64,000 nucleotides of DNA from a virus: UHGV virus genome UHGV-0096064; one strand, written 5' to 3'. Of this stretch, positions 408 to 55,520 are shown one piece after another (within the stretch, counting starts at the first letter, position 1; each line of letters opens with the position of its first letter). The notes under the pieces are model-generated. The model ran no database searches. It saw only the letters and a program-made list of their open reading frames with translations, and had not been told where the DNA came from. The position numbers and the translations under genes were made by a program.

Positions 408-3400
408 TTGGTGGGTATAGTCATGCAACAGAATATCTTCCAGTCTCCAGCATCTCAAATCTCACCAACTGTTTGGCAGACCGCTGTCAACTTCCTGCGG
501 CTGGTCTTGCCTACGGGCGTGGGGTTCTACAGCACCTCCTCGGTGGGGGCGAACCCCGGCTCGTGGCGAGACCAGCCGCATGCCAACATCGAGTCGATGG
601 CCCAAACGGTGCTCTCGCTCTCGGCGCAGCAATGCAACACCTACTTCGCCATGTCCGGCTTCCGTGAAGGACTCCATGAAGAACAGAAGCCGAACGGGAA
701 GACGGCTACAGTCTTCCGCACGCAGGCCAACGCCATAGCGCAGCGTTGCCTCTGGCTCGACATCGACTGCGGGAAGGCGAACAGCGTCTATCCCAACGAT
801 GTCGCCGCCATCAATGCGCTTACAAATTTCCTCAAGCAGACGGGACTCCCTCTTCCTGTCGTCGTCAGCTCCGGCCACGGCCTCCATCTCTACTGGCCTT
901 TCATGGAGTCCGTAAGCACCACGCAGTGGCTGCAAATGGCCGGGATGCTCAAGTCCCTCTGCACCCACTTCCAGTTCGACGCCGACCACAGCCGGACGAT
1001 GGATGCCGCCAGCGTCCTGCGCGTGCCCGGCACCTACAACTACGACTTCAAGGGCAAGTATGACGGGCAGCCCAAGCTGTGCCGCATCCTCATCCTGCCC
1101 AAGACCATATACCATGTGCTGGATATTGCCGGGACTCTGGTCAAGGCCATCAAGTCCAACCGGATAGCCCCGGCTACCTATACGTCGCCGCGCTCCACCT
1201 ATCCTCTCCCGTCCGTAGGAGCCGTGCCTCCCGCTCCCGAAGGGCTGTCCTTCGTCGGGATGGAGGAAGCCTTCAACGGGCCGAAGCGTCATCCCTTCCA
1301 GATTATCAGGAAGTGCCGCCAGATTCAGCAAGCGGGCCTTGGGACGTACACCCAATGGTACAACATGATGCTGGTCATGAAGCACTGCGCCTTCGGCGAG
1401 CAGGCCGTCCACGACATCTCGAAGATGGACAAGGTGCGCTACGACTACAACAACACCCAGACGAAGCTGACGCAGGCCATTGAGGGCGGCTACGGGCCGT
1501 GCCGCTGCGACACCTTCAACGAGAAAGACCCCGGCATCTGCCAGTCGTGTCCTTTCTGGGGGAAGATTACCTCCCCCCTCCAGTTGGGCGACCCGTATGT
1601 GGAACGCAAGCCTGTGAAGCTGGTCGCCGCCGATGTGAACAGCGACTCGCCCGTGGTCACGGCGTCCCCCTGCGCTCCCGTCATGGAGGTCATGCCCTTC
1701 AACAATCAGGAGTTCTCGGTCGTCCCCGGCAAGGGCGTCATCTGGCACAAGAAGACGCTCGTGTCCGCAGCCGAAGCCGGGGCCAACGATGATGAAGACC
1801 ACTACATCACCAAGGACATCCTCATTTGCGATGTGGAAATTTATGTCCATAGCGTCTGCATTGACGACACCGGGCCGGACTTGCAGCGCAGCTACCTCGT
1901 GCGCAAGCAGGCTCCGGGGAAGGCACCGGAAGAACTGCGGCTTAACGTGACCTCGGACTTGGGAACGCAGAAGCTCTGGAACTGGCTGGCGAACAATGCG
2001 ATGCTGCCTGTACACCCCCGTTACAACAAGCAGTTGAGTGACTTTATGAGCACATATCTAGCGTCCATTCAGAACAAGCTGCCGGAAGTTTTTGTCCGCG
2101 ACACGTTCGGTTGGGTGACGAACCATGACGGCGTGACTGGAGAGTCCTATCCCGGCTTCATCGTCGGGCCTGAGATGTTCACGTCCCGTGGCGTCAAGCC
2201 TGTCAAGCTCACGCCCCGCGCCGCACAGGTGGCCGAGTCCTTCTCCCGTGTCGGGAATCTGGAGAAGTGGAAGATGGTACCGCAGATGTACCGCATCCTC
2301 GAACAACCCTTCTCTCAGCTCATGATGCTGACCGGGTTTGGCGCTCCGTTTATGAAGAACGGCGTCGGCACGGCCACCAACGTGGCCTACTCCCTCTGGG
2401 ATGTGAAGGGCGGGAAGGGCAAGTCCACCGTCCTTGAAGCCGTCTCCAGCATATGGGGCTGCCCGAAGCATCTCCTCCAGACGAAGAACGATACCGTCTC
2501 GTCCCGTTTCCAGAAGTACGCGGTTCACAAGAACCTGCCCATCTTCATCGACGAGGTGACGAACATCAGGGAAGCCGACCTCTCCGACCTTATCTACGAC
2601 ATCGTGAACGGACGGGAAAAGAGCCGTTCGCTTGGCTCCGGTACGGCGCTGGCCCGCTCCGGGTCATGGTCGACCACGACTCTGTTCACCTCGAACAAGT
2701 CTCTTTACGAGATGCTCAAGAGCAGCCACATCCAGTCTGACGCCACCTGCATGCGCGTGGTCGAGCACCAGTGCGACTTCAAGGACTATACGGGCACGCC
2801 CTACCAGAAGTACATCGCCAGCGTGCAGAACGTGATGCACACCAACTATGGGCTCGCTGGCCCGGCGTTCCTCCAGTATTGTTTCGACCATCCCGAAGTG
2901 ATGGACGAGATTACCCATAAGGCCAAGGCTTTCGCCCAGACCTATACCGTCCAGTCCGACGAACGGTTCTGGATGTACGGCATCGGCATCCCGCTGGCGG
3001 CTGGTGAAATCGCCGTCCGCGCCGGACTCATCGACTACGACATCCCGTACCTGCGCGAGTGGTGCGTCAAGGTGCTCCTGCCCTCGCTCCGCGAAAAGAT
3101 TCGCGACACGAAGTCCAGCGGCGACAACCTGCTGTCCGAGTTCCTCAACGAGAACATCAGCCACACCCTGTCCGTGAGCTCGGCCAAGCGCCCCTCCAGC
3201 CAGAAAGACCCCGGCATCCAGTCCGGCCTCGACACCTACGTCAAGTTTTACCCGGTCGGCGCTCTCTATATCCGCCACGAACAGGACACGAACACCTACT
3301 ACGTCAGCACGAAGCGGCTGCAATACTGGTGCCGGGACAACCGAATCTCGATGGACGTCATGCTTCAAGAGCTGCGGAACAAGGGCGTCTACCAGAAGAA

Positions 3401-3497
3401 CGACAAGATTCAATACGCCCTCGGCAAGTGGGTGTCGGCTCTTGACCATAGCAGGTCGACGGTCTTCCGGTTCGTCATCCCGCAGGATAAGGAATAG
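408..3497 (+). CDS. bifunctional DNA primase-polymerase (AEP family) fused to an SF3 (D5-like) helicase
   Basis: N-terminal AEP motifs: LWLDIDCGK (hhhDhD) and SSGHGLHLYW (sGxGhH). C-terminal Walker A DVKGGKGKSTVLEA and Walker B IFIDEVT, typical of D5 or P4-alpha-like primase-helicases. The annotated start is GTG at 408; an ATG lies 5 codons downstream. Confidence 0.85.
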   Translation: MVGIVMQQNIFQSPASQISPTVWQTAVNFLRLVLPTGVGFYSTSSVGANPGSWRDQPHANIESMAQTVLSLSAQQCNTYFAMSGFREGLHEEQKPNGKTATVFRTQANAIAQRCLWLDIDCGKANSVYPNDVAAINALTNFLKQTGLPLPVVVSSGHGLHLYWPFMESVSTTQWLQMAGMLKSLCTHFQFDADHSRTMDAASVLRVPGTYNYDFKGKYDGQPKLCRILILPKTIYHVLDIAGTLVKAIKSNRIAPATYTSPRSTYPLPSVGAVPPAPEGLSFVGMEEAFNGPKRHPFQIIRKCRQIQQAGLGTYTQWYNMMLVMKHCAFGEQAVHDISKMDKVRYDYNNTQTKLTQAIEGGYGPCRCDTFNEKDPGICQSCPFWGKITSPLQLGDPYVERKPVKLVAADVNSDSPVVTASPCAPVMEVMPFNNQEFSVVPGKGVIWHKKTLVSAAEAGANDDEDHYITKDILICDVEIYVHSVCIDDTGPDLQRSYLVRKQAPGKAPEELRLNVTSDLGTQKLWNWLANNAMLPVHPRYNKQLSDFMSTYLASIQNKLPEVFVRDTFGWVTNHDGVTGESYPGFIVGPEMFTSRGVKPVKLTPRAAQVAESFSRVGNLEKWKMVPQMYRILEQPFSQLMMLTGFGAPFMKNGVGTATNVAYSLWDVKGGKGKSTVLEAVSSIWGCPKHLLQTKNDTVSSRFQKYAVHKNLPIFIDEVTNIREADLSDLIYDIVNGREKSRSLGSGTALARSGSWSTTTLFTSNKSLYEMLKSSHIQSDATCMRVVEHQCDFKDYTGTPYQKYIASVQNVMHTNYGLAGPAFLQYCFDHPEVMDEITHKAKAFAQTYTVQSDERFWMYGIGIPLAAGEIAVRAGLIDYDIPYLREWCVKVLLPSLREKIRDTKSSGDNLLSEFLNENISHTLSVSSAKRPSSQKDPGIQSGLDTYVKFYPVGALYIRHEQDTNTYYVSTKRLQYWCRDNRISMDVMLQELRNKGVYQKNDKIQYALGKWVSALDHSRSTVFRFVIPQDKE

Positions 3498-40281: not shown

Positions 40282-40914
40282 ATGTACGGATATTTGGAAA
40301 ACAAGGGCAGGGTCATGGGAAAACTCGCCTTCTCCTGCTCTTGGAACTTCGTCGGCGACCTCGCCAACAACCCCCGGTACAACGCGCTAGTGACGACGCC
40401 GAACCTCCTCTTCCTCTCGACGTCCTATGAAGAGCCGGGAGCGGATGACGGGATGGAGTTCACCTCAAACGGCCTTGTCTGCACCGAGGGGTCGATTGCC
40501 ACGAAGACGCAAACGGATTCAAGCTGGACAATCTCAGGACTTACGGGGTCACAAATCAACATGGGCGCGGGTTCGGCCAATGCCTTCAACATCATCAACT
40601 ACCTGACCGCATGGGTCTGGAGTCCGAAGAAGGAACAGTGGTATTCTCTGGGCACACTCCCCTCGTATGCACCGGGGTCTCCGACTTCCGTCAACACCGA
40701 CCAGCACCTGTCGATGGATAGGCAAGGCGAGGTGAGCTACCTCGAAGCCAAGGAACCCTCTGACGACCACCGCATCATCCGGTGGGAAGACTTCGACTTC
40801 CACTTCCAGATGACGGCGGTCTATACGGACAAGTACGAGAGCTGCAACTTCAAGGAACCCATCGTGAACGTGCGCTTCGGCGCGCCCTACGAGTTCGACC
40901 CCGACTACTTCTAG
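40282..40914 (+). CDS. hypothetical protein whose N-terminus MYGYLENKG echoes the LRR paralog starts
   Basis: 210-aa plus-strand ORF between minus-strand LRR genes. Begins MYGY, as do the three LRR proteins (MYGYRDN, MYAYLNHKD, MYGYRDNEPRES). Confidence 0.5.
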   Translation: MYGYLENKGRVMGKLAFSCSWNFVGDLANNPRYNALVTTPNLLFLSTSYEEPGADDGMEFTSNGLVCTEGSIATKTQTDSSWTISGLTGSQINMGAGSANAFNIINYLTAWVWSPKKEQWYSLGTLPSYAPGSPTSVNTDQHLSMDRQGEVSYLEAKEPSDDHRIIRWEDFDFHFQMTAVYTDKYESCNFKEPIVNVRFGAPYEFDPDYF

Positions 40915-41020
40915 AAAAGGCCGGAATGGGGCCTAGGATGGCGATAACGGGTCAAGATAGCGTTGGATAAGGGATGAGGGATTGCGAGGCTCTGGAGGGC
41001 GTTTCTGCCCCGGAAAAGGT

Positions 41021-41053
41021 GAACCCCTCTCAAGTTGCAGTTGAGAGGGGTTC
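41021..41053. terminator. perfect 13-bp hairpin between the converging plus-strand cargo genes and the minus-strand small genes
   Basis: GAACCCCTCTCAA-gttgcag-TTGAGAGGGGTTC. Confidence 0.45.
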
Positions 41054-41158
41054 GGAGGACTGGTCATGTCCATACGTTGGAGTACGTATACGGCAGGAGA
41101 CCGAAATCAGGATGTTTCCTTAATTACCCCGCCAGTATACCCCGGACGGGGCTTGAAG

Positions 41159-41293
41159 TCAACAGCCGCCCCATCGCTCCATCGCGTAGATGAGGATGCA
41201 GGCTATCACCCATCCCCAGAAGATGCCGCTGCACGCGGCCCAGAACGGGACGCACAGGAAGACGAACGTGAGGAACAAGATGTAAGCCATACT
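41159..41293 (-). CDS. possible 44-aa hydrophobic peptide (below the ORF-track cutoff)
   Basis: Hand translation: MAYILFLTFVFLCVPFWAACSGIFWGWVIACILIYAMERWGGC. Two predicted transmembrane segments. Tandem with 41292..41483. Confidence 0.3.
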   Translation of the reverse strand, partial: SMAYILFLTFVFLCVPFWAACSGIFWGWVIACILIYAMERWGGC

Positions 41294-41483
41294 AAAGAGT
41301 TCTCGTGGCCCAAAGGATGAAGGCGATGCAGGCCAAAAGGCTCACCAGCACGGCGCAGGCAATCGCGAAATCATCCGAGGGCACGGCCTCCCGGTTCTGG
41401 CAGGGGCACTGGACGACGATGGTTTGGCACACAGGCTGGCACTGGACAGGCATCGGATACTGAACGGACGGAGAAGCATTCAT
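41292..41483 (-). CDS. possible small Cys-rich membrane protein
   Basis: 63 aa. Cys-rich N-terminus (CQPVCQTIVVQCPCQ) and C-terminal transmembrane helix ACAVLVSLLACIAFILWA. Downstream of the disrupted LRR gene. Confidence 0.35.
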   Translation of the reverse strand: MNASPSVQYPMPVQCQPVCQTIVVQCPCQNREAVPSDDFAIACAVLVSLLACIAFILWATRTL

Positions 41484-41523
41484 ATCGAGGACTCCTTTGG
41501 GTTAAATGGTTCGAGAACGGATG

Positions 41524-43135
41524 TTACTTCCAATCGTCGGGAATGTCAACGTAGTTGGAAGCACTGGTCACGTTGCGGAAACACCTGCCATGGTCGGCGA
41601 CATCAGGGTATGTCGTCCATAGCGTGGGTACGGCGCTTGTTACCTGTGAGCAACCGAGGAATGTACTTACAAAACTTTCCACTTTGCTCTTATTGTCAAA
41701 CAACCCGGACGGGATGCTCTTTAGAACCTGCCAATTCGCGAACGTATTCTGGAAAGATGTGACATCCGGCTGGTTCCTGAACAGTCCGGCGGGAATCTCC
41801 ACACCAGCCCACCACTCGGAAAAGGCGTTATAGAAGTTGGTCGCCTTGATATTGTTGGCAAATATGTCTTCCGGTATATGCGTCATCTTGGACAAACCGG
41901 CAAACACGCTGCCGAAGTTAGTAACCTTGGTGTTCTTAGCGAAAAGGTTCGCAGGGATTTCTCCCACGATACTCTGACATCCGCTGAACGTGGCGAAGAA
42001 CACCGTGGCATCCGGCTAGTTGTCGAACAGTCCTTCGGGTATCCCCGTTATCAGGCTGCAATCGGAGAACACATAGGAGAAATCGGTAATCTTGGGATTG
42101 TTGGCGAACAATTCCGCCGGGATAGTACCCGTCACCTTGTAGCAGCTTTCAAACAGATACTCGACATCCACGAGTTCCGTCATGGCGCTCAGGAGATTGC
42201 CCGGAATGGAACCCGTGAGGTTCCTGCAATTGTCGAACAGATGGGCCACGGTGGTGACTTTCGTATGCTTGGAGAACATGGAGGGCATGGGATTGGCCCA
42301 ACTCGAACAATTTTGGAAGGTCGATGCAAACGAAGTCACTTCGAGATTGGTGTCGAATAATGTCGTGGGCACCGAAACCAGCGAGGTGCAACCATAGAAC
42401 GTGTTGGTGAAGTCGACGACTCTGGTGTTCTTGGCGAAAAGTCTGGACGGGATGGTGGTGATGCCGCACGTTGAGAATGTACCGTAAAAAAGTCGTGACG
42501 TCCGGGCAATTATCAAAGAGGTTGTTGGGAATGGCCTTGATGCCGAGGCATCCATAAAAACAATCGGAAAAACTGTTGACCTTGACGGTCTTGTCGAAGA
42601 GACCGGATGGGATTTCCGTCAAACCGGAACAGGTGTGGAACGTGGAGTTGAAGGTCTCGGTGTTCGGATTGCCGTCGAAAATCCCGGCGGGGATGGCCTT
42701 CAATTTGGAGCAGCCGTAGAACGCGCCCTTGAACGCGGTCGGGACAAGTTCCGGAAAGCTGTATCCGGTAGGGTCTTTCGGCACGATGCCGACAAGCGTG
42801 TCCTGCCACAAGTCCATGTTCTTTATGGCGTTCGTAAACGAGCACTTGCCGAGGTCGTCCGCCGTCACTCCTATGACGTACTCGCCCGGCGTCGCGTAAG
42901 TATGCGTGGCGTACTCGTCGAAATAGGCATCACTATACTCGATGCCCTTGGGGATGGTCGTAATGGTGCCGTCGCCCCAATCCACTTGTACGGCAGTCTG
43001 CGTTTTATAACCAGACATCATATTCTCGAACGCATGGATGGAGCTCATGGCTTTCGTATTGCCCGATGTCGTAGCCTCGGTATTCACGACACAATAGACG
43101 TATTCCCTATCCTTATGATTCAAATAAGCATACAT
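41524..43135 (-). pseudogene. BspA-type LRR paralog 2, disrupted by a +1 frameshift in a T6 run (~42484) and an in-frame TAG (~42013)
   Basis: Three consecutive ORF-track pieces (42149..43159, 42016..42555 and 41524..42003) together make one LRR protein homologous to its neighbours. The frame changes at gtcacgacTTTTTTacgg (VTTF|LRY versus the expected VTTFYGTFSTCG). Then LFDN-TAG-PDATV(M)FFATFSGC. Confidence 0.7.
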
Positions 43136-43157
43136 AATGATACTCTCCTTATTTTCC

Positions 43158-43167
43158 ATATATATAT
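43158..43167. repeat. (AT)5 tract in the upstream region of LRR paralog 2
   Basis: On the coding strand: cgctcTTTGACTgaatccccATATATATATggaaaatAAGGAGagtatcattATG(MYAY...). A TTGACT -35-like hexamer lies 9 nt upstream of the tract. Confidence 0.6.
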
Positions 43168-43211
43168 GGGGATTCAGTCAAAGAGCGACGCCATGTGAGG
43201 TCAGGAGGGGA

Positions 43212-44927
43212 CTACTTCCAGTCGTCAGGAATGTCGGCGTAGTTGGTCAACTTGCTGCAATTTCTGAAACATTTAGTTCCATTGGCGTCAGGATGAGTGA
43301 CCCACAAGTCGGGAGCTGTTCCAACCAGCTTGTAACAATTCTCGAATATCTGGTGGAAATCCTTGATATTCGGATTGTTCACGAAGAGGTTCGTTGGCAG
43401 CGTCGTCAAATTGGTGCATCCATTAAACATCATCTCCACGTCATCCAGAGCAGGATTGTTGTCAAACAACCCTTCCGGGATGGCACCCTCCAACGTGTTC
43501 AAACTATAGAAAGCGTAAGCCAAATTCTTTAACTTGGGGTTGTTGGCGAACAGCTTGGCGGGAATGGAGCCGTTGAAATCACAACCGTAGAACACGCTGT
43601 CGAGATACGTTAGCTCCGGGCAATTGGCAAAAAGATTCTCAGGAATGGGGCCGTTCAAATTGCATACCCTGAACAAACCGGAAAAAATCTCGGCAAGCGG
43701 GTTATGAGCGAACAACCCTTCCGGAATGGGGCCCACCAAACCATCACAACCATAGAAACAGCCGGAGAAGTTCGTCACTTCGGGGCAATTGGCAAAAAGG
43801 TTTTCAGGGATAGTTCCTGTGAGTCCCTCGCAGAACCGGAAGGTATCCGAAAACGTCTGCACCTTCGTGCAATTGGCAAAGAAGTTCTCAGGAATGGCAC
43901 CAGTGAGCTTCTCACATTCATAGAACGTCGCCTCGAAAGAAATAACTTCGGGGCAATTGGCGAACAAACCCGCAGGCAGGGAACCCGTCAGGCCCTTGCA
44001 ACCGTAGAATGCAGAGACAAAGGTACCCGCCTTCCGGTTATTGGCGAAAAGATTCTCAGGAATGGAGCCAGTGATATTTTCGTCAAAATAGAACAATCGG
44101 TCAAAAGTGTAAGCTATGGTGTTGTGGGCAAAAAGGTTTTCAGGGATAGGCCCTGTCAATCCAGGGCAGTGGCTGAATACATAGGCGAACGATGTCACAT
44201 TGGGATTGTTGGCGAAGAGATTCTCAGGAATTTCAGTCAGTCCCTCACAACCATTGAACACGCTGTCAAACTTGTAAACTTTTGGACAATTGGCAAAAAG
44301 GTTTTCAGGGATAGACGTGATATTTTCACAGCTATAGAATGTGGAAGCAAACGACTCGACCTTGGTGTTCTTGGTGAAAAGGTCTTCGGGAAGCGCACCC
44401 GTAAGTCCAAGACAATAATAGAACGTATTTTCAAAAGTGGTGGCGTCTACGTTTTTGTAGAATATGCCTTTAGGAACCTGCGTCAACTTCTTGCAACTAT
44501 AAAAGGCATAAGCAAGTCCGTCATGCCGGAAAACAGGCAGCGAATAGGACTCGGCACCCTTGGGGCCAATCCCGATAAGAGTTCTTCTATAGACATTCCA
44601 TTCACTCTGGTTGATGTCATAACCATGCAACTTGCAGACGCTGAAATCATCAGCGTAAACAGTCACAGTATATTCGCCGGGGGTGGCATAGTCATGCGTG
44701 GAATATTTATCCCAATACTGTGAATAAAACTCCGTACCCTTGGGAATTTCGGAAATTGAACCATCACCCCAATCAATAGTAATTGCCGTCAGGGATTGCT
44801 CATCAAGACCAAAGCTATTGAATGAATATACTGGAACCACAAACTCGGTATCACCCTCGTTGGTGGCCTCGGTATTTATAAGAAAGATAAGGCTTTCACG
44901 CGGCTCATTGTCACGATAACCATACAT
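43212..44927 (-). CDS. BspA-type leucine-rich-repeat protein, paralog 1 (571 aa from the MYGYRDN start)
   Basis: Long array of ~23-aa repeats (FxxCxxLTGxIPENLFANNxxxxxFxxxF). The N-terminal domain and the C-terminal YADIPDDWK are shared with the paralogs. The ORF track extends 78 codons further upstream (to 45161) through the promoter-like sequence. The homologous start with an AAAGGAG RBS is at 44927. Confidence 0.75.
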   Translation of the reverse strand: MYGYRDNEPRESLIFLINTEATNEGDTEFVVPVYSFNSFGLDEQSLTAITIDWGDGSISEIPKGTEFYSQYWDKYSTHDYATPGEYTVTVYADDFSVCKLHGYDINQSEWNVYRRTLIGIGPKGAESYSLPVFRHDGLAYAFYSCKKLTQVPKGIFYKNVDATTFENTFYYCLGLTGALPEDLFTKNTKVESFASTFYSCENITSIPENLFANCPKVYKFDSVFNGCEGLTEIPENLFANNPNVTSFAYVFSHCPGLTGPIPENLFAHNTIAYTFDRLFYFDENITGSIPENLFANNRKAGTFVSAFYGCKGLTGSLPAGLFANCPEVISFEATFYECEKLTGAIPENFFANCTKVQTFSDTFRFCEGLTGTIPENLFANCPEVTNFSGCFYGCDGLVGPIPEGLFAHNPLAEIFSGLFRVCNLNGPIPENLFANCPELTYLDSVFYGCDFNGSIPAKLFANNPKLKNLAYAFYSLNTLEGAIPEGLFDNNPALDDVEMMFNGCTNLTTLPTNLFVNNPNIKDFHQIFENCYKLVGTAPDLWVTHPDANGTKCFRNCSKLTNYADIPDDWK

Positions 44928-44957
44928 ATTGGTTCTCCTTTTTGTCCTTTCTATACA

Positions 44958-44967
44958 AGAGAGAGAG
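44958..44967. repeat. (AG)5 / (CT)5 tract in the spacer between -35-like and -10-like hexamers of the LRR paralog 1 promoter
   Basis: Coding strand: ccagtccTTGCCAgCTCTCTCTCTtgTATAGAaaggacaaaAAGGAGaaccaatATG. The spacer between TTGCCA and TATAGA is only 13 nt. Gaining two CT units would give 17 nt. Confidence 0.6.
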
Positions 44968-45257
44968 CTGGCAAGGACTGGAGCGGGACAGGGTGTGGGC
45001 CGGGAACTGGACTGGAAATTTCTCCGAAAAAATTTTGGAGGGGGTGAATGCTGTGGATTCAGACGGGGGTCAACGAAGCCCCCACCCCCCCTCGGACTGG
45101 ACTCATCTACGAACTCGGCGTCGACGGTGTCGCGCAATGTAGGTTGGCACAGGAATTGCATAGGAAAAGTTGCTCGAAGTCGCGAGCGTTCCTATATATG
45201 GAGTGGCCGGGGCGCGCCAAGTCCTTCGTCCAAATCCCCCGCCGGGCCGTCCCTACC

Positions 45258-45285
45258 CTCGACGCCCTCGACGCCCTCGACGCCC
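45258..45285. repeat. 3x direct 9-bp repeat CGACGCCCT
   Basis: acgccctcgacgccctcgacgccctc, at the leftward edge of the control region. Confidence 0.5.
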
Positions 45286-45427
45286 TCCCGCCCGCCTCAC
45301 TCCATCACCTTGATGAAGCGGCCTGACGCGCCGCCTGCTCCACGTTCGCGGCTCATCCCTACCTTATATATACCCTGACCTTTTCGCCGCAAGCTGACGC
45401 GCTTCCCGTCCTGCTATGTCATCAGCT

Positions 45428-45459
45428 CCATCCAGTCCCGCCAGTCCCGCCAGTCCTAC
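45428..45459. repeat. 3x direct repeat CCAGTCC(C/T)(G/A)
   Basis: tccagtcccgccagtcccgccagtcctaccag. The core TCCAGTYC also recurs upstream of several early genes. Confidence 0.5.
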
Positions 45460-45469
45460 CAGACAACCA

Positions 45470-45780
45470 AGTGCACAATGTAATATCAACAAACCTATAT
45501 TACATTGTTACCTACACTGTAGTATTACACTGTTACAGGTGTTATATTGTAGCATTACACTGTAACGCGCAATGTACTTTTACAATGTAACACCTGTTAC
45601 AATGTAATGTTATTGTAAATTACATTGCACACTTGCTTACATTGTTATGGCATTGTTTTTTACATTGTTGCAGGTGTTACATTGTTTTTTACAATGTAAG
45701 TTACACTGTAAGTGTAATTACATTGCATGTAACATTGCGTCGCGCAATGTAAATTTTTACAATGTAATTACACACAGCGC
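45470..45780. repeat. dense array (>20 copies in ~300 bp) of a palindromic motif TTACA(A/T)TGTAA; iteron or operator array and candidate replication origin or master control region
   Basis: Read directly from the sequence: ...ttacattgttacc tacactgtagtattacactgttacagg...ttacactgtaacgcgcaatgtacttttacaatgtaacacctgttacaatgtaatgttattgtaaattacattgc...tttttacattgttgcaggtgttacattgttttttacaatgtaagttacactgtaagtgtaattacattgcatgtaacattgcgtcgcgcaatgtaaatttttacaatgtaattaca. GC content drops from ~60% to ~35% here. Confidence 0.7.
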
Positions 45781-45788
45781 GGGTTCCT

Positions 45789-45806
45789 TATTGATAATGG
45801 ATTATC
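45789..45806. promoter_or_regulatory. perfect 8-2-8 palindrome TTGATAATggATTATCAA (operator-like)
   Basis: Read directly from the sequence. Sits between the two iteron-rich blocks. Confidence 0.45.
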
Positions 45807-45899
45807 AACTTGCAACTTTTGCAAAAAACGAGATTCCGTAAGTTGTTGAATTTGTTGACCCGGAAAAATTTTCGCAAACCCCAAAAAGTGGTGAAAAAA

Positions 45900-46460
45900 T
45901 TACACAGGGAGAAAGTTACATTGTAAAAACGGGGACGAACGGGAGGACAGGAAGAGTAGAAAAATCAAGGGTTTATATATATTATTTTTTAAAAAAGAAT
46001 AAAATATATATATGTACTATGTAACTTTTTACCCCCTTACAATGTAACGGCCTATCCTAGTCGGCAAAAATGCAAAATGCTTTTTTCCAAATCGCCGAAC
46101 TTGATTGTGAAAATTTTCACCACTCAGGCGGCCTCGATTTACATAAGCTGCTATGTAACTTTTTGCGGAACCCCCCAAAAAAAACTTGCAAATTTGCATA
46201 CCCCCTTGAAAATCAGCGTAACACTTCAACGATTTCAACAACTTGCAACCAATTTTAAAATGCAAGTGAATTTTTTCACACTTGCAACTAGTTGGAATAT
46301 ATTAGGATACATCTTGCAAGTCAATTTGCAACCCCATTTTTACATTGTAAAAAGTAAAATCGTGTTACTCGTTTACATTGCGCAACACCGTCGACGCCGC
46401 CTTACACTGCATAACGCAATGTAAAAACAATGCAACAATCCTCACTATGTAATTACATTG
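45900..46460. repeat. second, sparser block of TTACATTGTAA-family motifs plus five ACTTGCAA(C) repeats, flanking a ~60-bp A/T stretch
   Basis: gttacattgtaaaaacg, ccttacaatgtaacgg, tttttacattgtaaaaag, gtttacattgcgcaa, cttacactgcataacgcaatgtaaaaacaatgcaacaat, and aacttgcaaatttgcatacc, caacttgcaacc, cacacttgcaact, catcttgcaagtcaatttgcaacc. Confidence 0.6.
45961..46020. promoter_or_regulatory. ~60-bp nearly pure A/T stretch; candidate DNA-unwinding element of the origin
   Basis: aaaatcaagggtttatatatattattttttaaaaaagaataaaatatatatatgtactat, in a ~60% GC genome. Flanked by the iteron-like motifs. Confidence 0.4.
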
Positions 46461-46648
46461 TTCTGCCCCTTGTCCAGTTCTGAGCGCGACACACGCGACG
46501 CCGTCCCCAAGTCCTGAGCTCCGCCCTGTCGCCTCTGCCTTCCGAATCCGGTTTCACTATCCCCAATAATCCAGTTCACCTTAACATCTTGATATTCCTA
46601 CTCAATCCAGTTCAACAAAAATAATTCCGAAAATTTTCGCTACAACTC

Positions 46649-46677
46649 TTGACAACATTTCAGTAACTCCTTATCTT
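46649..46677 (+). promoter_or_regulatory. sigma70-like promoter for the rightward (early) arm
   Basis: TTGACA-17 nt-TATCTT, ~90 nt upstream of the first early gene. Position +/-2. Confidence 0.45.
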
Positions 46678-46762
46678 GGCATCAACAACGGCGAACAACG
46701 CCGCCGGTTGCTACCGTAGCAACCCGATAACTTCACCTAATCCTATTCAAAGGAGTTCCCCA

Positions 46763-47113
46763 ATGGCTATGAGCTTTATGCTTTCCGTCCAGTCCACGTT
46801 CGCGCCTGAGCCCATTACGGGCATCGTCAAGGGTGATCTTGTCGTCTACCATCATGACGGCACGGTTGTCGCCGTCTATCACAAGGGCTCTGTCCTGTTC
46901 GCTCCGGTCTATTCGGATTCCCATATCGAGGCCGTGAACTTCTTGATGCACCTGTTCGCCATCCCCTTTTTTGTCCGGAACATGAACGGGACGAACTGGA
47001 TAACGTCCCGGCTCACGGGGGAAACCCGGTATACCGTGAAGCCATACCTTGTCGCTCTTGCCGACTATCAGCTTGAGTTCCTCGACAACCTTGAAGCAAT
47101 CGTCAACGCGTGA
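46763..47113 (+). CDS. early protein, member 1 of a tandem paralog array
   Basis: 116 aa from an ATG with an AAAGGAG RBS (the ORF-track start at 46676 is upstream). Related in layout to the next genes. Confidence 0.5.
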   Translation: MAMSFMLSVQSTFAPEPITGIVKGDLVVYHHDGTVVAVYHKGSVLFAPVYSDSHIEAVNFLMHLFAIPFFVRNMNGTNWITSRLTGETRYTVKPYLVALADYQLEFLDNLEAIVNA

Positions 47114-47535
47114 GGAATCCAGTCATGAGAACAAACATCCCCGATAGAATTATCAGGGCTATCCACGCTTATTCCCCGTGGGCTTGCGAGACTGTGCAAG
47201 TTGTCGTCGAATGCCGTCGACTGGCGAACGGACGAATTGTTTCATCTCTCACTGTCCGGTATAAGGGGTTCGCCATTGCTTGCTATGATTCCGAAACCGG
47301 AACGCTTTCCATTATCCGGTGCCACAACTTTGACGGGATGGCGGCGGCTCGAATCAATTCCGTACTGCGTGCCTTCAAGTTGAATGAACGGCTGGCATAT
47401 CATAAGGGGGAATGCCTGATTCTTACCAGTGACGCCAACGTCCCTATGGAACCTTATGACGTATTCAACTTGTACGTCCCTATTGACAACCGTCCTGTTG
47501 TCCCTTACTATGGATTACAGTTGACCGACAACTGA
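47110..47535 (+). CDS. early protein, paralog array member 2
   Basis: 141 aa. Shared block VRYKGFAIACYDSETGTLSIIRCHNFDGMAAARINSVLRAF, compared with members 3 and 4. Confidence 0.55.
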   Translation: MRNPVMRTNIPDRIIRAIHAYSPWACETVQVVVECRRLANGRIVSSLTVRYKGFAIACYDSETGTLSIIRCHNFDGMAAARINSVLRAFKLNERLAYHKGECLILTSDANVPMEPYDVFNLYVPIDNRPVVPYYGLQLTDN

Positions 47536-47574
47536 CTTGCAACTATCCAGTTCAACCACACTGGCACCAAAGGA

Positions 47575-47976
47575 GTGTGTACCATGCGGCAGATTACTAA
47601 GGAAATGGTGGAAGCGATACGAGCCCCCCGGCGGTACTGGAAGGACAACACGCTTGTTTCCGTCATACACAACGAGGCAACCGGACTGTTCAGCTTGTCC
47701 GTCTACCTCCATGACCACCTGATTGCCCGGTACGTCAACACCGACAACACCTTGTGCATATCCACGGCGGGGTGGTCTACCATGACCACAAGGGAGAGGC
47801 TCAACGGCGTCCTTCACGCTTTCGGACTCCCGCACTATACCCGCCGCATTTGCCATAACCTTTGGCTGTTCGACGAGAACGAGAACCGGGAGGTGATGAA
47901 GGGCAATAACTTCTATGACATTCCCATTGACCGGGACAAGTGCCCCGTCAACCTCCCCCCGCTCGTCAAGCCCTGA
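47575..47976 (+). CDS. early protein, paralog array member 3
   Basis: 133 aa. VYLHDHLIARYVNTDNTLCISTAGWSTMTTRERLNGVLHAFGL aligns with members 2 and 4. Confidence 0.55.
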   Translation: MCTMRQITKEMVEAIRAPRRYWKDNTLVSVIHNEATGLFSLSVYLHDHLIARYVNTDNTLCISTAGWSTMTTRERLNGVLHAFGLPHYTRRICHNLWLFDENENREVMKGNNFYDIPIDRDKCPVNLPPLVKP

Positions 47977-48078
47977 CCCCGAACTTTCATCCAGTCCAGT
48001 ACCCGGCGGACAAGCGGACTCTACATCCGCCCGCCGTCACGCGAACCCTAACGCCCATGCCAAGCATGGAGGTACATC

Positions 48079-48885
48079 ATGCAACAAGTTATCCGCCACT
48101 CCGTCCAGTCCTTCATGGCCTGCACCCCCTACCGTCACCGGGATACCGAGATTGCCGTTTCCCATGACGACAACGGCACCCCGTCCGTCCGCCTCAACTA
48201 CTACGGCAACCGCGTAGCCCTCTACTCTCAGGGCGTGCTCATGGTTTCCCCATGCGGATACGCCACCCGCTCGACTGTCGTCCGCATCAACGCCGTGCTT
48301 GACGCTTGCGGCATCCCCGCCCGCTTCATCCTTAAGCGCACCCCCTCCAATCGGAACCAGCTCCATATCAGCCACAAGGGGAAGACCTCCCTTGTCGGGA
48401 ACCTCCACGCATCCCACGCTTTCAACGTCCCTGACGGCTATCAGCCGGGGTTCAACGGCTACTCCCATTCAAGCCCTGACCCCCTCCCTACCCGTGAACA
48501 GCCCACGCCCAACCGTTCCTATTCGTCCATGAAGACGTGGCGCATGGCCGCACAAGCCCTCTCCGCTTTCCGGGAGTACGACTCCCGCCATGTCCATGTC
48601 CGATACGTCGACTACGACACGCCCGCTCAACAGGCGCGCCTCTATATGCACAAGACGAACCTTGTCTATCTTACCCACGGTTCCGTTGGCTTCTTCCCTC
48701 CCGAATCCAAGACGCAAGCTGAGTGCCTGTCCGTTGTCCTCCCCATCATCGACGTACCCGCCACCGTCCGGTGGAACGGCGGGCATCCTGTCGTCGTACC
48801 GAATGACGTCGACCAGCCGCCATTCCATTTCCCCGACAAGCAAGCCCCTGTCGTCTTTGTCAGGGCTTCCCAAATTTTCGTCTAG
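48079..48885 (+). CDS. early protein, paralog array member 4 (longer, 268 aa)
   Basis: LNYYGNRVALYSQGVLMVSPCGYATRSTVVRINAVLDACGI aligns with members 2 and 3. Has an extra C-terminal domain. Confidence 0.55.
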   Translation: MQQVIRHSVQSFMACTPYRHRDTEIAVSHDDNGTPSVRLNYYGNRVALYSQGVLMVSPCGYATRSTVVRINAVLDACGIPARFILKRTPSNRNQLHISHKGKTSLVGNLHASHAFNVPDGYQPGFNGYSHSSPDPLPTREQPTPNRSYSSMKTWRMAAQALSAFREYDSRHVHVRYVDYDTPAQQARLYMHKTNLVYLTHGSVGFFPPESKTQAECLSVVLPIIDVPATVRWNGGHPVVVPNDVDQPPFHFPDKQAPVVFVRASQIFV

Positions 48886-48935
48886 CCCTCGTCCAGTCCA
48901 TCCCTTGAACCCATACCCAGACAGGAGAATACCCA

Positions 48936-49358
48936 ATGGAAGACCAGCGACTTGACCTGTCCCTGTGGGAGTGCCGCCACTTCCCGAACATCTTCAACGC
49001 TCTGAGGAATCGCGAATGGCGGTACGCCGCCGCCGACTACCTCGTTGCCACCGACAACGACAGGATACAGGTGACCCGCGCTCTCTATGACGGCTTCACC
49101 ATCCTGTCCCTGTCGAACGGGAATACCCTGCACTTTCCCAACCCCCAACCCCCGGCGGATTCCGTCCCGTTCATCCGGTTTACGCTCATGCAATGCCGCG
49201 TTCCGTTCGCCGTCGAACTCCTCCCGTCCGGGCAACTGGAGTTCAGGACGAAAAACAACATGCGGATTGACCCGTCCGGGTTGCCCCTCGTGCTGAACTC
49301 CGAGTTCCGCATGTCCCGCAATACCTTTGTTCAAACCATGTTGAAGGCGTGGAGGTAG
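48936..49358 (+). CDS. early protein, possible divergent paralog array member 5
   Basis: 140 aa. Same size class and upstream TCCAGTCCA element. Sequence similarity to the other members is weak. Confidence 0.45.
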   Translation: MEDQRLDLSLWECRHFPNIFNALRNREWRYAAADYLVATDNDRIQVTRALYDGFTILSLSNGNTLHFPNPQPPADSVPFIRFTLMQCRVPFAVELLPSGQLEFRTKNNMRIDPSGLPLVLNSEFRMSRNTFVQTMLKAWR

Positions 49359-49359
49359 C

Positions 49360-49716
49360 ATGTCACACAAGCCGCCAGTCATTGCGCCATATGTCGACGC
49401 CTTCATCAAGCGCCATATCCTACGGCATCGGCAAGTGGTCATACAGAACTTCACCAGCGAGGAAGGACAACGGACGACTTGGCTATACAACAAGGGCAAT
49501 CTTGTCCTTATGTTATCCAACTTCCAGTTGTCCATCCATACTTATCACCTGACCGAATTTACTGAGGCACTTGCCAACGGCGTGCTGAAAGCCTATGATA
49601 TGGGTATCCATATTCATGCTACCGACAGGTATGTTTATATTCAGTATGACAATGGGCATACCGTGAAGAAAGATAAAGGCAATATTTTTTCCGTCTTTGT
49701 CCCGTTAAAGGATTGA
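49360..49716 (+). CDS. early protein, possible divergent paralog array member 6
   Basis: 118 aa. Block LYNKGNLVLMLSNFQLSIHTYHLTEFTEALANGVLKAYDMG resembles the Y.G..h....(n)...T..R.N.VL.AF pattern. Confidence 0.45.
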   Translation: MSHKPPVIAPYVDAFIKRHILRHRQVVIQNFTSEEGQRTTWLYNKGNLVLMLSNFQLSIHTYHLTEFTEALANGVLKAYDMGIHIHATDRYVYIQYDNGHTVKKDKGNIFSVFVPLKD

Positions 49717-54202: not shown

Positions 54203-54646
54203 ATGTCTGACTATCGTGAAATGGCTCTGGACTTCATGAACAAGCAGGCTACCATTCGTGAAATGACTCCCGCCGAATACGTCGCCGGGGTTAAGGAAGC
54301 CGAGAAGCAGTTCGAGCTGCTCGATCAGGTCGAGGAGGAATCCTCTGACCAGACCATGCTCGTCGCTGACCCCGCCACTGCCATCAAGGAACGCACCATC
54401 ACTTGCTGCTGCTGCGGGAACCAGTACCGCCTGCTGACCCGCAAGCACCTTGCCAGCCACGGGTTGGACTATGAACAATACCGCCAGCTTTGCGGCTACA
54501 AGCCTGACCTTCCCCTTATCGCCAAGTCCTTGCAGCGTGAGCGCCGCAACCGCATGCGCGAGATGCGCCTGTGGCAGAAGAAGGAAGGCGCTCAGGGTCA
54601 TGAGCAGGCTCAGGTTCTCCCCAAGCCCAAGGCTTTAGAGGACTAG
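54203..54646 (+). CDS. MucR/Ros-family zinc-finger transcriptional regulator
   Basis: ITCCCCGNQYRLLTRKHLASHGLDYEQYRQLCGYKPDLPLIA matches the Ros/MucR C-x2-C-x9-H-x4-H finger and the following ..PEEYR.KWGLP.DYP block. 147 aa. Confidence 0.75.
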   Translation: MSDYREMALDFMNKQATIREMTPAEYVAGVKEAEKQFELLDQVEEESSDQTMLVADPATAIKERTITCCCCGNQYRLLTRKHLASHGLDYEQYRQLCGYKPDLPLIAKSLQRERRNRMREMRLWQKKEGAQGHEQAQVLPKPKALED

Positions 54647-54656: not shown

Positions 54657-55520
54657 ATGGAACAGCAAGAACTTGAACAGCGGATAGTCCAGTTGGAGGC
54701 TACCGTAAACGCTCTGGTCACGCAGTTCCTTCCCCCCGTCACGGAACGGCTCGCCGCCTTGGAACGCATCGTCCGGGTTATCAAGCCGGAAGGGACAGAG
54801 GGAGAGGAGAAGCCAGCGGCTGAACCGCGCAAGCGTTCCGCCCTGTCCTACCGGATGTACCAGATGGTGAAGCTCCTGCATGAGCAGGGCGCTCCCGTGA
54901 AGGAAATCGTCAGTCGGTGCGACTTGCCCTATACGACCGTGCGGGCGTACATCAATCTCTCTCCCGAACGTGTCGAGCAGCTTCGGCAGAAGCAGGAGAA
55001 GAAGGATGCGGAAGCGGCGGAACGTGCGCTGCGTGCGATGCGCAAGCAGGCGAAAGAGATGGGCAACGACATGCCCGTACCTCCTCCGCCCGCTGGTGCC
55101 GATGCTGACGTGGACGCTCCGGCTGGCGTGGTGGTAGGCACGGTCGACCCGAAGACGCCTCGTGAGGAGGCGTATGTGGCGGCCCAGAACCAGTCCGTCC
55201 TGTCTGCCGAGGGGACGCTCGCCAACCCCACGGTGGCGGCGGAACCCGTGCCGACCGAGGCCGTAGCCGAGGACAGCTATCAGGTCGAGTGCCCCCGTTC
55301 GATGGAGCCCTACGGTTCCGCCGGATGGTATGACTGGACGCATGAGCTGCGGACGTTCGCTCAGTCTCACCAGTTCCCCGATGGGTTCCCTCGTTTCTAT
55401 CCCGTCGACAGGGGTACGCTGGTCTACGTCCAGTACATGAACGAGCAGGTGGAGCCGACGCCTGTCGCCGCTGGCGCGGTCGATTGGGCCTTCTCCGTAC
55501 TGCGTTGGAAGTTGGTATAG
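54657..55520 (+). CDS. hypothetical coiled-coil protein with a putative helix-turn-helix
   Basis: 287 aa. N-terminal coiled coil. Possible HTH LSYRMYQMVKLLHEQGAPVKEIVSRCDLPYTTVRAYI. Pro/Ala-rich linker. Confidence 0.45.
   Translation: MEQQELEQRIVQLEATVNALVTQFLPPVTERLAALERIVRVIKPEGTEGEEKPAAEPRKRSALSYRMYQMVKLLHEQGAPVKEIVSRCDLPYTTVRAYINLSPERVEQLRQKQEKKDAEAAERALRAMRKQAKEMGNDMPVPPPPAGADADVDAPAGVVVGTVDPKTPREEAYVAAQNQSVLSAEGTLANPTVAAEPVPTEAVAEDSYQVECPRSMEPYGSAGWYDWTHELRTFAQSHQFPDGFPRFYPVDRGTLVYVQYMNEQVEPTPVAAGAVDWAFSVLRWKLV

What the first reader, a model, noticed from the sequence alone, without database searches (positions are those of the whole stretch)
45470..46460. AT-rich 1.6-kb control region with >30 palindromic TTACA(A/T)TGTAA sites, ACTTGCAA repeats and a ~60-bp pure A/T element: candidate origin plus operator array
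This region lies between the divergently transcribed late and early arms, and GC content falls to ~35%. Within ~300 bp (45470-45780) the 11-bp palindrome TTACATTGTAA and variants (TTACACTGTAA, TACAATGTAA) occur more than 20 times, often overlapping or back to back. Another ~8 copies plus five ACTTGCAA(C) repeats flank a ~60-bp almost pure A/T stretch (45961-46020). A perfect 8-2-8 palindrome TTGATAATggATTATCAA lies at 45789. This iteron plus DNA-unwinding-element layout is typical of theta or iteron origins. Such a density of one palindromic half-site also suggests cooperative binding by a phage-encoded dimeric DNA-binding protein (candidates: the MucR/Ros protein at 54203 or the HTH protein at 54657). 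The motif is not a known LexA, DnaA or CI operator.
Basis: seen in the sequence. Interest (0 to 1): 0.65.

Follow-up and report, generated by a model that had tools for sequence, protein, structure and literature searches.

The report
Phage origin-like repeat control region
A 1.8-kb gene-free stretch between the two divergent gene arms of an uncultured human-gut phage carries about two dozen copies of one short palindrome around a pure A/T block, an arrangement that most resembles a replication origin of the kind used by self-loading primase-helicases and that is conserved in two distant relatives.

Summary
The gap 44928-46762 has no convincing gene. Its AT-rich part (45460-46460, 28-42% GC against about 57%) holds 23 TTACANTGTAA sites (2 mismatches or fewer), against 1.95 expected from shuffles of the region itself and 3 in the other 62 kb.

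Two syntenic relatives (DNA polymerase 64% and 50% identical) share the layout: GC-rich tandem repeats, an array with the same TACANTGTA core, a purine-rich tract, a 45-60-bp A/T block flanked by sites, then the early genes.

The phage encodes a 1029-aa PrimPol-helicase. Its model matches the SaPIbov1 Rep initiator and SCCmec Cch. Published SaPI origins are iterons split by a central AT-rich region.

My best reading (about 0.45) is a replication origin plus an auxiliary iteron/operator array inside the early/late control region. The binding protein is unresolved:
- The initiator's C-terminal domain and a conserved coiled-coil HTH protein (54657-55520) are both candidates.
- MucR is unlikely to be the sequence-specific reader.

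Nothing tested here shows that replication starts in this region.

The parts
44928..46762 (.). Whole gene-free control region between the divergent late (-) and early (+) arms
   Evidence: Identical in five assemblies.
45116..45141 (+). Left arm of a 26-nt inverted repeat (CGGCGTCGACGGTGTCGCGCAATGTA). It ends in a motif half-site.
   Evidence: pair I2: 96% complementary, 1232 nt between the arms.
45145..45160 (+). Exact sigma-54-type promoter TGGCACAGGAATTGCA (-24 GG, -12 GC), pointing toward the array and the early genes
   Evidence: Only exact match in the 64 kb. Conserved in variant L197. Relative L216 has three. Fits the Desulfovibrio consensus tGGcacg/tTGCt (PMC4641369).
45257..45285 (.). 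GC-rich 9-bp tandem repeat CCTCGACGC x3. A second one, CCAGTCCCG x3, lies at 45432-45458.
   Evidence: Relatives carry other GC-rich tandem repeats at the same place.
45473..45767 (.). Dense array of 16 TTACANTGTAA-type sites, spaced 12-25 bp, with a 17/23 alternation (period 40) in the middle
   Evidence: Units are gained and lost in variant L197 (-12 bp, +41 bp).
45732..45750 (+). 8-bp-stem hairpin ACATTGCG/CGCAATGT followed by a T run (terminator-like). It is made of two motif half-sites.
   Evidence: DNA fold -7.5 kcal/mol, z = -2.9.
45791..45808 (.). Perfect 8-2-8 palindrome TTGATAATGGATTATCAA
   Evidence: In L197 both arms carry a change at mirrored positions that is not complementary.
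45808..46321 (.). Span holding five ACTTGCAA repeats: 45808, 46184, 46241 and 46280 on +, 46314 on -
   Evidence: Related CTTGCAGTTG repeats occur in L200.
45916..45926 (.). Exact site TTACATTGTAA on the left flank of the A/T block. Part of an inverted pair with 46015-46033.
   Evidence: pair I17.
45927..45971 (+). Purine-rich tract (AAAACGGGGACGAACGGGAGGACAGGAAGAGTAGAAAAATCAAGG) directly before the A/T block
   Evidence: GC skew up to +0.5 and AT skew up to +0.39 in the 100-bp windows covering 45850-45999. A like tract stands at the same position in L200 and L216.
45972..46016 (.). A/T block, 45 bp with 2 G/C. Candidate DNA-unwinding element.
   Evidence: Equivalent blocks of 59 bp (L200) and 48 bp (L216).
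46014..46047 (.). Two sites on the right flank of the A/T block: GTACTATGTAA at 46014 and exact TTACAATGTAA at 46037
46107..46120 (.). Palindrome GTGAAAATTTTCAC. A second one, GTGAATTTTTTCAC, lies at 46266-46279. Possible host-factor sites.
   Evidence: Read from the sequence. Their resemblance to CRP/FNR or Rex boxes is from memory and was not tested.
46275..46324 (.). Overlapping divergent sigma-70-like promoters that share the AATATATT -10 region
   Evidence: 10 of 12 matches each. Consensus match only.
46340..46463 (.). Right-hand group of sites (46340, 46374, 46402, 46413, 46442, 46453), including the right arm of the 26-nt inverted repeat (46374-46399)
46649..46677 (+). Sigma-70-like promoter TTGACA-17-TATCTT, about 85 nt before the first early gene
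408..3497 (+). 1029-aa PrimPol (AEP) fused to a SaPI-Rep/Cch-like helicase (DUF927) with a C-terminal helix/strand domain. Candidate origin-binding initiator.
54657..55520 (+). 287-aa protein with an N-terminal long helix and a tri-helical HTH. Candidate reader of the palindrome.
   Evidence: Kept next to MucR and the DNA polymerase gene in L200, L206 and L216.
54203..54646 (+). Ros/MucR zinc-finger protein. A possible coat of the AT-rich island, unlikely to be the specific reader.

Best explanation
The AT-rich core of the gap is most likely the phage's replication origin, embedded in the region that also starts early and late transcription.

Proposed mechanism (all steps inferred):
1. A sequence-specific protein binds the TACANTGTA sites that face each other across the 45-bp A/T block (45916; 46014 and 46037).
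2. The block melts.
3. The phage's own PrimPol-helicase, a relative of the SaPI Rep and SCCmec Cch self-loading initiator helicases, assembles there and primes synthesis.
4. Rightward transcription from the sigma-54 promoter at 45145, or from local sigma-70-like promoters, passes through the purine-rich tract just before the A/T block and may help opening.
5. The dense 300-bp array (45473-45767) and the right-hand group (46340-46463) are extra copies of the same site. They would act as an auxiliary cluster that concentrates or titrates the binding protein, as auxiliary iteron clusters do in other iteron replicons. Because sites also lie near the promoters at both edges, they could couple replication to the early/late switch.

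Shown: the elements, their enrichment, their conservation in relatives, and the fold of the initiator.
Inferred: who binds the sites, and that replication starts here.
For: 1. The site is enriched about 12-fold over shuffles of the region itself and is almost absent elsewhere in the genome.
2. Sites sit on both sides of the A/T block as parts of an inverted pair (I17).
3. The 1029-aa protein models at pLDDT 88. Its best PDB matches are SCCmec Cch (5dgk, E 2e-18, target TM 0.68) and the SaPIbov1 replication initiator (8tch, E 1.5e-15, target TM 0.64). The N-terminal part matches AEP PrimPol and RepB' primases. Sequence searches agree.
4. SaPI origins are described as 6-12 iterons with a central AT-rich region and at least two iterons on each side pointing in opposite directions, bound by the Rep C-terminal winged helix (PMC9371898).
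5. Relatives L200 (DNA polymerase 64% identical) and L216 (50%) keep the same order of elements and the same core. L200 has 32 ACATTG cores in 2.26 kb against 11 in the other 18 kb, and its first eight units are spaced 11-13 bp in one orientation.
6. In the 94%-identical variant L197 the core 45800-46400 is 96-100% identical. The array gains and loses units, and the neighbouring first early gene is replaced.
7. The same palindrome serves as tandem repeats inside replisome-organiser (Phage_rep_org_N) genes of gut Clostridia prophage-like contigs. So it occurs as tandem repeats at putative origins elsewhere.
Against: - No replication data exist for this phage.
- The cumulative GC-skew minimum is at 49578, about 3 kb to the right, not in the region.
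- The region is about 18 kb from the primase-helicase gene, whereas SaPI origins lie directly after rep.
- About 24 sites is far more than the 6-12 of SaPI origins, and the sites are near-palindromes of 9-11 bp rather than 5-6-bp iterons.
- The helices of the initiator's C-terminal domain are not more conserved between the window and the L200-lineage protein than in other family members.
- A dimeric HTH regulator would explain a palindrome equally well.
- Only three lineages could be compared, and all three encode every candidate binder.
Confidence: 0.45

Rival explanations
1. A purely transcriptional operator array. The conserved coiled-coil HTH protein (54657-55520) binds the palindromes as a dimer and spreads cooperatively. 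It would shut off or switch the divergent early and late promoters. The A/T block would be only a bendable or UP-like element.
For: - The HTH protein has a confident tri-helical HTH after a long helix.
- Its putative recognition helix is invariant in all three lineages that keep the motif, although overall identity falls to 24%.
- In L200 a site overlaps the -10 of the proximal early promoter.
- Sites lie within about 200 bp of the promoters at both edges of the gap.
Against: - In the window no site overlaps the sigma-70-like early promoter.
- About 24 sites spread over 1 kb is far more than an operator needs.
- It does not account for the conserved A/T block with facing sites, or for the purine tract.
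Confidence: 0.25
2. An enhancer for sigma-54 transcription. The palindromes would be upstream activating sequences for a host or phage enhancer-binding ATPase that fires the sigma-54 promoter(s) and so starts the early programme.
For: - There is an exact sigma-54 promoter at 45145-45160, the only one in 64 kb. From base composition I estimate about 0.02 exact matches by chance; that figure was not computed with a tool.
- L216 has three exact ones, all pointing toward the early genes. One is about 50 nt before the first early gene, with a site about 170 bp upstream.
- They fit the Desulfovibrio sigma-54 consensus.
Against: - No sigma-54 activator AAA+ domain was found in any protein scanned, though not every ORF was scanned.
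- In the window the array lies downstream of the promoter, not upstream.
- No sigma-54 promoter is visible in L200, whose left part has an assembly gap.
- The window's proximal early promoter looks sigma-70-like.
Confidence: 0.12
3. A genome end or packaging site. The phage has an N4-like layout, so the gap could hold the physical termini or terminal repeat. The repeats would then be terminase or end-processing sites.
For: - The late arm runs terminase, portal, capsid and onward to a 2516-aa virion protein whose N-terminus matches the N4 virion RNA polymerase family. That this is the N4 gene order is from memory.
- Several contigs stop in the GC-rich left part: the IMG/VR contig at about 45085-45105, L197 at 45103, L069 at 45205. 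The L216 contig ends in its tandem repeat, and L200 has a scaffold gap there.
Against: - Five assemblies read straight through.
- The 64.2-kb contigs are broken at other, differing places, which is consistent with a circular assembly (coordinates, arithmetic mine).
- Tandem repeats and a poly-G run would break assemblies on their own.
- No small terminase subunit was identified.
Confidence: 0.1
4. A MucR nucleation site. The phage Ros/MucR protein would recognise TTACA/TGTAA half-sites and oligomerise over the AT-rich island to silence or protect it.
For: - MucR is present in all three lineages that have the array.
- The family oligomerises and binds AT-rich DNA.
- The Agrobacterium Ros-box arms end in TT(T/A)CA and TGTAA. 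The arm sequences occur in the review PMC9779718; the comparison is mine.
Against: - The family is described as a low-consensus minor-groove binder, whereas this motif is sharply defined.
- Eight other MucR-encoding viral contigs (L212-L215, L217-L220), a MucR-bearing prophage-like contig and chromosomal mucR loci have no such arrays.
- A related lineage (L297) has an HU-like gene, not MucR, before its DNA polymerase gene.
Confidence: 0.07

Closest known systems
SaPI replication origins with Rep/PriRep self-loading helicases (S. aureus pathogenicity islands), and SCCmec Cch
   Same: - Short repeated binding sites lie on both sides of a central AT-rich region, in opposite orientation.
- The element encodes its own primase plus an MCM-like DUF927 helicase with a C-terminal DNA-binding domain. 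The fold match is strong and the origin layout is as published.
   Different: - The sites are 9-11-bp near-palindromes, not 5-6-bp iterons.
- There are about 24 copies rather than 6-12.
- The region is about 18 kb from the helicase gene instead of directly after it.
- The primase is an AEP PrimPol.
- Binding was not tested.
Satellite phage P4 ori/crr with the alpha primase-helicase
   Same: A fused primase-helicase initiator, an origin with repeats next to an AT-rich stretch, and a second separate cluster of the same repeats needed in cis.
   Different: - The P4 repeats are the octamer TGTTCACC.
- crr lies kilobases away from ori.
- P4 alpha belongs to a different helicase lineage.
- No homology was tested here.
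Origin-in-gene iterons of phage replisome organisers (Phage_rep_org_N, SPP1 G38P type)
   Same: The same palindrome GTTACA(A/T)TGTAAC occurs as 4-5 tandem copies inside replisome-organiser genes of three gut Clostridia prophage-like contigs.
   Different: - No such protein was found in the window (and the Pfam scans).
- Here the sites are intergenic and far more numerous.
- The shared motif is probably convergent.
matS/MatP of Photorhabdus
   Same: GTTACNNNGTAAC (for example GTTACATTGTAAC) is bound by the dimeric ribbon-helix-helix protein MatP (PMC8669397). This shows that a small dimer can read this palindrome.
   Different: - matS sites are single and dispersed in a chromosome terminus region.
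- MatP is, to my knowledge, confined to enteric and related gamma-proteobacteria.
- No MatP-like match appeared in the Pfam or NCBIfam scans of the phage proteins checked; these did not cover every ORF.
Phage T7 primary origin (promoters followed by an AT-rich stretch)
   Same: Promoter(s) directed into an AT-rich block, suggesting opening helped by transcription. (From memory.)
   Different: - T7 uses its own RNA polymerase and has no iteron array.
- Here the promoters are of host sigma-54 and sigma-70 types.

Membership tests
Iteron origin of the SaPI Rep / self-loading helicase class | Central AT-rich unwinding region | tested here: met
   45972-46016 is 45 bp with 2 G/C. It contains the two longest A/T-only runs in the window, 25 and 16 bp.
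Iteron origin of the SaPI Rep / self-loading helicase class | [quoted passage not shown] | tested here: met
   Sites at 45916 versus 46014 and 46037, within inverted pair I17. Because the sites are near-palindromes, orientation rests on their flanks.
Iteron origin of the SaPI Rep / self-loading helicase class | Element encodes a Rep/Cch-type initiator helicase with a C-terminal DNA-binding domain | tested here: met
   Foldseek: 5dgk E 2e-18, 8tch E 1.5e-15, with target TM 0.64-0.69 over nearly the whole target. DUF927. The winged-helix nature of residues ~960-1023 is inferred from secondary structure only.
Iteron origin of the SaPI Rep / self-loading helicase class | Origin lies directly downstream of the rep gene | tested here: not met
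   The helicase gene is at 408-3497. The region is about 18 kb upstream along the early arm, and there is no array next to the gene.
Iteron origin of the SaPI Rep / self-loading helicase class | The initiator binds the repeats and melts the AT-rich region; replication starts there | not testable with these tools
   Needs EMSA or footprinting, melting assays and marker-frequency data.
Ros/MucR operator | Target array co-occurs with the MucR gene across elements | tested here: not met
   Arrays occur only in the three syntenic phage lineages. They are absent from L208-L215 and L217-L220.
Ros/MucR operator | Low-consensus AT-rich target with T-A steps | tested here: inconclusive
   The island is AT-rich, but the repeated element is a sharply defined palindrome with fixed C and G positions.
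Sigma-54 promoter with upstream enhancer | -24 GG and -12 GC elements at exact spacing | tested here: met
   TGGCACAGGAATTGCA at 45145-45160. Three exact matches in L216.
Sigma-54 promoter with upstream enhancer | Cognate AAA+ enhancer-binding protein, with binding sites about 80-200 bp upstream | tested here: inconclusive
   No Sigma54_activat hit in the roughly 40 phage proteins scanned. A host activator cannot be excluded. In the window the array is downstream of the promoter; in L216 one site is about 170 bp upstream of the third promoter.
N4-type hairpin early promoters for a virion RNA polymerase | Stable 5-7-bp stem, 3-nt loop DNA hairpins, and a virion RNA polymerase domain | tested here: not met
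   Single sites fold at 0 to -0.1 kcal/mol as DNA. The 2516-aa protein matches only the N-terminal part of the N4 vRNAP profile and no solved polymerase.
Replisome-organiser (Phage_rep_org_N) origin | Organiser protein encoded, with the repeats inside its gene | tested here: not met
   phmmer of four proteins from these contigs, three of them Phage_rep_org_N organisers, against all window ORFs gave no hit. Pfam scans were negative.
Known RNA families | Match to an Rfam model at its gathering score | tested here: not met
   None in the window. Only sub-threshold miRNA-hairpin noise over the inverted repeats.

The most novel reading that the evidence does not exclude
The region may be a combined replication and transcription switch that a virulent gut phage runs on the host's sigma-54 machinery. 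Sigma-54 promoters (one here, three in a relative, one of them directly before the first early gene) would be activated through the palindrome array acting as an enhancer. The resulting purine-rich transcript would open the adjacent A/T block for the self-loading PrimPol-helicase. Early phage development gated by sigma-54 and an enhancer array has, to my knowledge, not been described.
Probability: 0.12. Interest if true: 0.7.

Novelty: new variant of a known kind. Interest (0 to 1): 0.45.

Why it matters
- The phage belongs to an uncultured family of ~60-65-kb podovirus-like phages from the human gut. The host is probably Desulfovibrio-like. This rests on the nearest cellular MucR (Pseudodesulfovibrio, 42% identity), the sigma-54 consensus and the GC content, and is an inference. 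No control elements are known for this family.
- A defined candidate origin with a defined 9-11-bp site and a short list of three candidate binding proteins makes the replication start of this family directly testable.
- If confirmed, it would give a minimal replicon for hosts with few genetic tools.
- It would also extend the SaPI/SCCmec type of self-loading initiator and split-iteron origin from Gram-positive islands to a lytic phage of a Gram-negative anaerobe.
- Exact sigma-54 promoters at the head of the early arm are, to my knowledge, unusual for a phage and worth mapping.

Tried and rejected
- **DNA similarity to sequenced phages:** none.
- **tRNA genes and Rfam families:** none.
- **Motif scans of IMG/VR:** only unrelated AT-rich or simple tandem-repeat hits.
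- **Motif scan of genomes:** Vibrionaceae ATTTACAGTGTAAAT clusters and Prevotella 22-bp tandem repeats were judged unrelated. The Clostridia replisome-organiser iterons were kept only as an analogy.
- **Relatives found through the terminase (L001-L016):** they have a one-direction gene order or do not reach the region, so they were of no use.
- **Early proteins:** no detectable relatives.
- **Promoter-array idea** (TTACA as -35, TACAAT as -10, from the 17/23 spacing): dropped, because the L200 array has 11-13-bp spacing.
- **Hairpin or cruciform promoters:** single sites do not fold.
- **Invertible segment between the 26-nt inverted repeats:** no assembly shows the opposite orientation.
- **GC skew:** the minimum is 3 kb away.
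- **MatP/matS:** sequence resemblance only.
- **HTH protein:** the single-sequence model was confident only for residues 1-30 and 61-130, so no fold search was run on it. It has no relatives in sequenced phages or elsewhere in IMG/VR.
- **Comparison of the initiator's C-terminal helices across relatives:** not informative.
Full report
**What the window is.** The window is nearly a whole phage genome. Terminase (29592-31199), a portal-like connector protein (27622-29592; weak Pfam portal hit, PHROG head-tail adaptor), major capsid protein, internal virion proteins and a 2516-aa virion protein lie on the minus strand. This arm runs down from 44927. The plus-strand arm starts at 46763. It holds small early proteins, a NUDIX protein, a Ros/MucR protein, an HTH protein, a family-A DNA polymerase, nucleases and an SNF2 helicase. 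It wraps to a 1029-aa primase-helicase at 408-3497. Exact copies of the early proteins lie on 64.2-kb contigs from human-gut metagenome assemblies. From the coordinates the tool returned, I calculate that these contigs are broken at different places, as expected for a circular assembly. No sequenced phage is similar at the DNA level. The nearest isolates by DNA polymerase are Pseudomonas phages KPP25 and phiR18 at 28% identity.

**Checking the observation.** The gene-free gap is 44928-46762. Its left 500 bp is GC-rich and holds 9-bp tandem repeats. The part from 45460 to 46460 falls to 28-42% GC.
- TTACANTGTAA occurs 9 times exactly and 23 times with 2 mismatches or fewer in 45470-46460. Shuffles of that stretch alone give 0.01 and 1.95. 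Only 3 such sites lie in the rest of the window.
- Sixteen sites lie in 45473-45767, spaced 12-25 bp.
- Degenerate copies keep TTACAYTG and lose the other half, so the unit is really an 8-mer that often overlaps its own reverse complement.
- ACTTGCAA is enriched (5 of the 7 window copies).
- The A/T block is 45972-46016, and the 8-2-8 palindrome is at 45791-45808.
- The same sequence appears in five independent assemblies.

- A 26-nt inverted repeat (45116-45141 and 46374-46399) brackets the whole AT-rich part.
- Directly after its left arm is an exact sigma-54-type promoter, TGGCACAGGAATTGCA (45145-45160). It points right and is the only exact match in 64 kb.
- A hairpin with a T run lies at 45732-45750, built from two half-sites.
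- A purine-rich tract precedes the A/T block.
- Two GTGAA-N4-TTCAC palindromes lie at 46107 and 46266.
- A sigma-70-like promoter TTGACA-17-TATCTT lies at 46649-46677, before the first early gene.

**Relatives.** A 2.3-kb contig (L197) is a 94%-identical variant. The array differs by a 12-bp loss, a 41-bp gain and many substitutions. The first early gene is replaced. The stretch 45800-46400 is 96-100% identical.

Two more distant lineages were reached through the MucR protein. L200 is a 59.3-kb gut contig with DNA polymerase 64% identical. L216 is a 65.3-kb IMG/VR contig with DNA polymerase 50% identical. Both keep the gene order MucR, HTH protein, DNA polymerase, PD-(D/E)XK nuclease. Both have the same kind of gap at the head of the early arm, with elements in the same order:
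1. GC-rich tandem repeats.
2. A cluster of sites with the core TACANTGTA.
3. A purine-rich tract.
4. An A/T block of 48-59 bp with sites beside it.
5. Further sites, then the early genes.

In L200 about 22 units of 11-13 bp stand head to tail. The first eight share one orientation and the later ones are mostly inverted. One site overlaps the -10 of the proximal early promoter. L216 has three exact sigma-54 promoters, all pointing at the early genes. The last one is about 50 nt before the first early gene. They fit the published Desulfovibrio consensus. The nearest cellular MucR is from Pseudodesulfovibrio. The host is therefore probably in that group. This is an inference.

**What it most likely does.** The 1029-aa protein gave a confident model (pLDDT 88).
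- Its best solved-structure matches are the SCCmec Cch helicase and the SaPIbov1 replication initiator. These cover most of each target chain (target TM 0.64-0.69).
- The N-terminal part matches AEP PrimPol and RepB' primases.
- Sequence searches agree.
- SaPI Rep proteins are self-loading helicases that also act as initiators. Their C-terminal winged helix binds 6-12 short iterons arranged around a central AT-rich region, with at least two on each side in opposite directions. They melt the origin without ATP (PMC9371898).

The core of this region has that layout, and it is the best-conserved part of the gap. I therefore favour a replication origin at about 45900-46060. The 300-bp array and the right-hand sites would be auxiliary copies of the same site. 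The same palindrome is used as tandem repeats inside replisome-organiser genes of gut Clostridia prophage-like contigs. This shows it occurs as tandem repeats at putative origins elsewhere, although that protein family is absent here.

**Who binds.** This is unresolved.
- The initiator's C-terminal domain is the candidate by analogy, but comparison across relatives was not informative.
- The 287-aa protein at 54657 has a long N-terminal helix and a confident tri-helical HTH. Its putative recognition helix PYTT[VI]R.Y is invariant in the three lineages that share the motif, although overall identity drops to 24%. A dimeric HTH suits a palindrome.
- MucR is the weakest candidate as a specific reader. 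The family binds low-consensus AT-rich DNA, and other MucR-encoding elements lack such arrays. It could still coat the AT-rich island.

**Against the origin reading.**
- No replication data exist.
- The GC-skew minimum is 3 kb away.
- The helicase gene is about 18 kb from the region.
- The number and size of the sites exceed those of SaPI origins.
- An operator array for the HTH protein, a sigma-54 enhancer, and a terminus or packaging site remain open. The last is suggested by the N4-like gene order and by several contigs stopping near 45100. These readings do not exclude one another.

**Verdict.** This is a real, conserved, multi-part control region. It is best read as a new variant of the split-iteron origin used by self-loading primase-helicases, placed between divergent early and late promoters and combined with sigma-54 promoters. 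The MucR idea is not supported, and the HTH idea remains open.

Noticed in passing
window 45145-45160 (+); L216 270, 311, 1206 (+): Exact sigma-54-type promoters at the head of the early arm. There is one in the window and three in relative L216, one of them about 50 nt before L216's first early gene. No enhancer-binding ATPase was found among the phage proteins scanned.
   Followed up: partly
window 45116-45141 and 46374-46399: A 26-nt inverted repeat (96% complementary) brackets the whole AT-rich core. Two independent contigs (IMG/VR 3300045988_120807 and L197) stop within about 20 bp of its left arm. No assembly shows the segment inverted.
   Followed up: partly
window 46107-46120 and 46266-46279: Two palindromes, GTGAAAATTTTCAC and GTGAATTTTTTCAC. 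They recall CRP/FNR- or Rex-type boxes (from memory) and could be host-factor sites. They are fully conserved in variant L197.
   Followed up: no
window 46763-49716: A run of small early proteins that look like paralogues of one another. One of them (47575-47976) matches Pfam Kyano_Gp96. In variant L197 the first one is replaced by unrelated sequence.
   Followed up: partly
window 38368-44927 (-): Four paralogous proteins with BspA-type leucine-rich repeats and a PKD-like domain (phrog_9915) stand at the head of the late arm, with internal DNA repeats of about 84 and 165 bp. They are probably variable host-binding proteins.
   Followed up: no
window 4928-12478 (-): A 2516-aa virion protein. 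Only its N-terminal ~350 residues match the N4 virion RNA polymerase family. It also has an LPD38 domain. No polymerase domain was detected by sequence.
   Followed up: partly
L216 10799-13342: The DNA polymerase of this relative is about 135 residues longer. The insert begins with Cys and ends with His-Asn followed by Cys, which is the signature of a mini-intein.
   Followed up: no
L201 5971-7746; L297 358-945: One variant of the L200 lineage has two opposite-strand genes where the DNA polymerase gene should be. A more distant lineage (NCBI contig CBDLDI010000005.1) has an HU-like gene in place of MucR and the HTH protein before its polymerase.
   Followed up: no
L078 544-620, L093 6523-6590, L129 556-608: In gut Clostridia prophage-like contigs the palindrome GTTACA(A/T)TGTAAC is repeated 4-5 times inside replisome-organiser genes. 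There it is translated as ALHCN/ALQCN peptide repeats.
   Followed up: partly
L070, L071, L073, L090, L111 and other Vibrionaceae loci: Clusters of 3-4 copies of ATTTACAGTGTAAAT at irregular spacing occur in many Vibrio, Photobacterium and Aliivibrio genomes and in one Psychromonas plasmid. Their gene context was not examined.
   Followed up: no
L200 1397-1600: The control region of relative L200 contains a small 67-aa gene with its own ribosome-binding site and terminator. The window has no counterpart.
   Followed up: no
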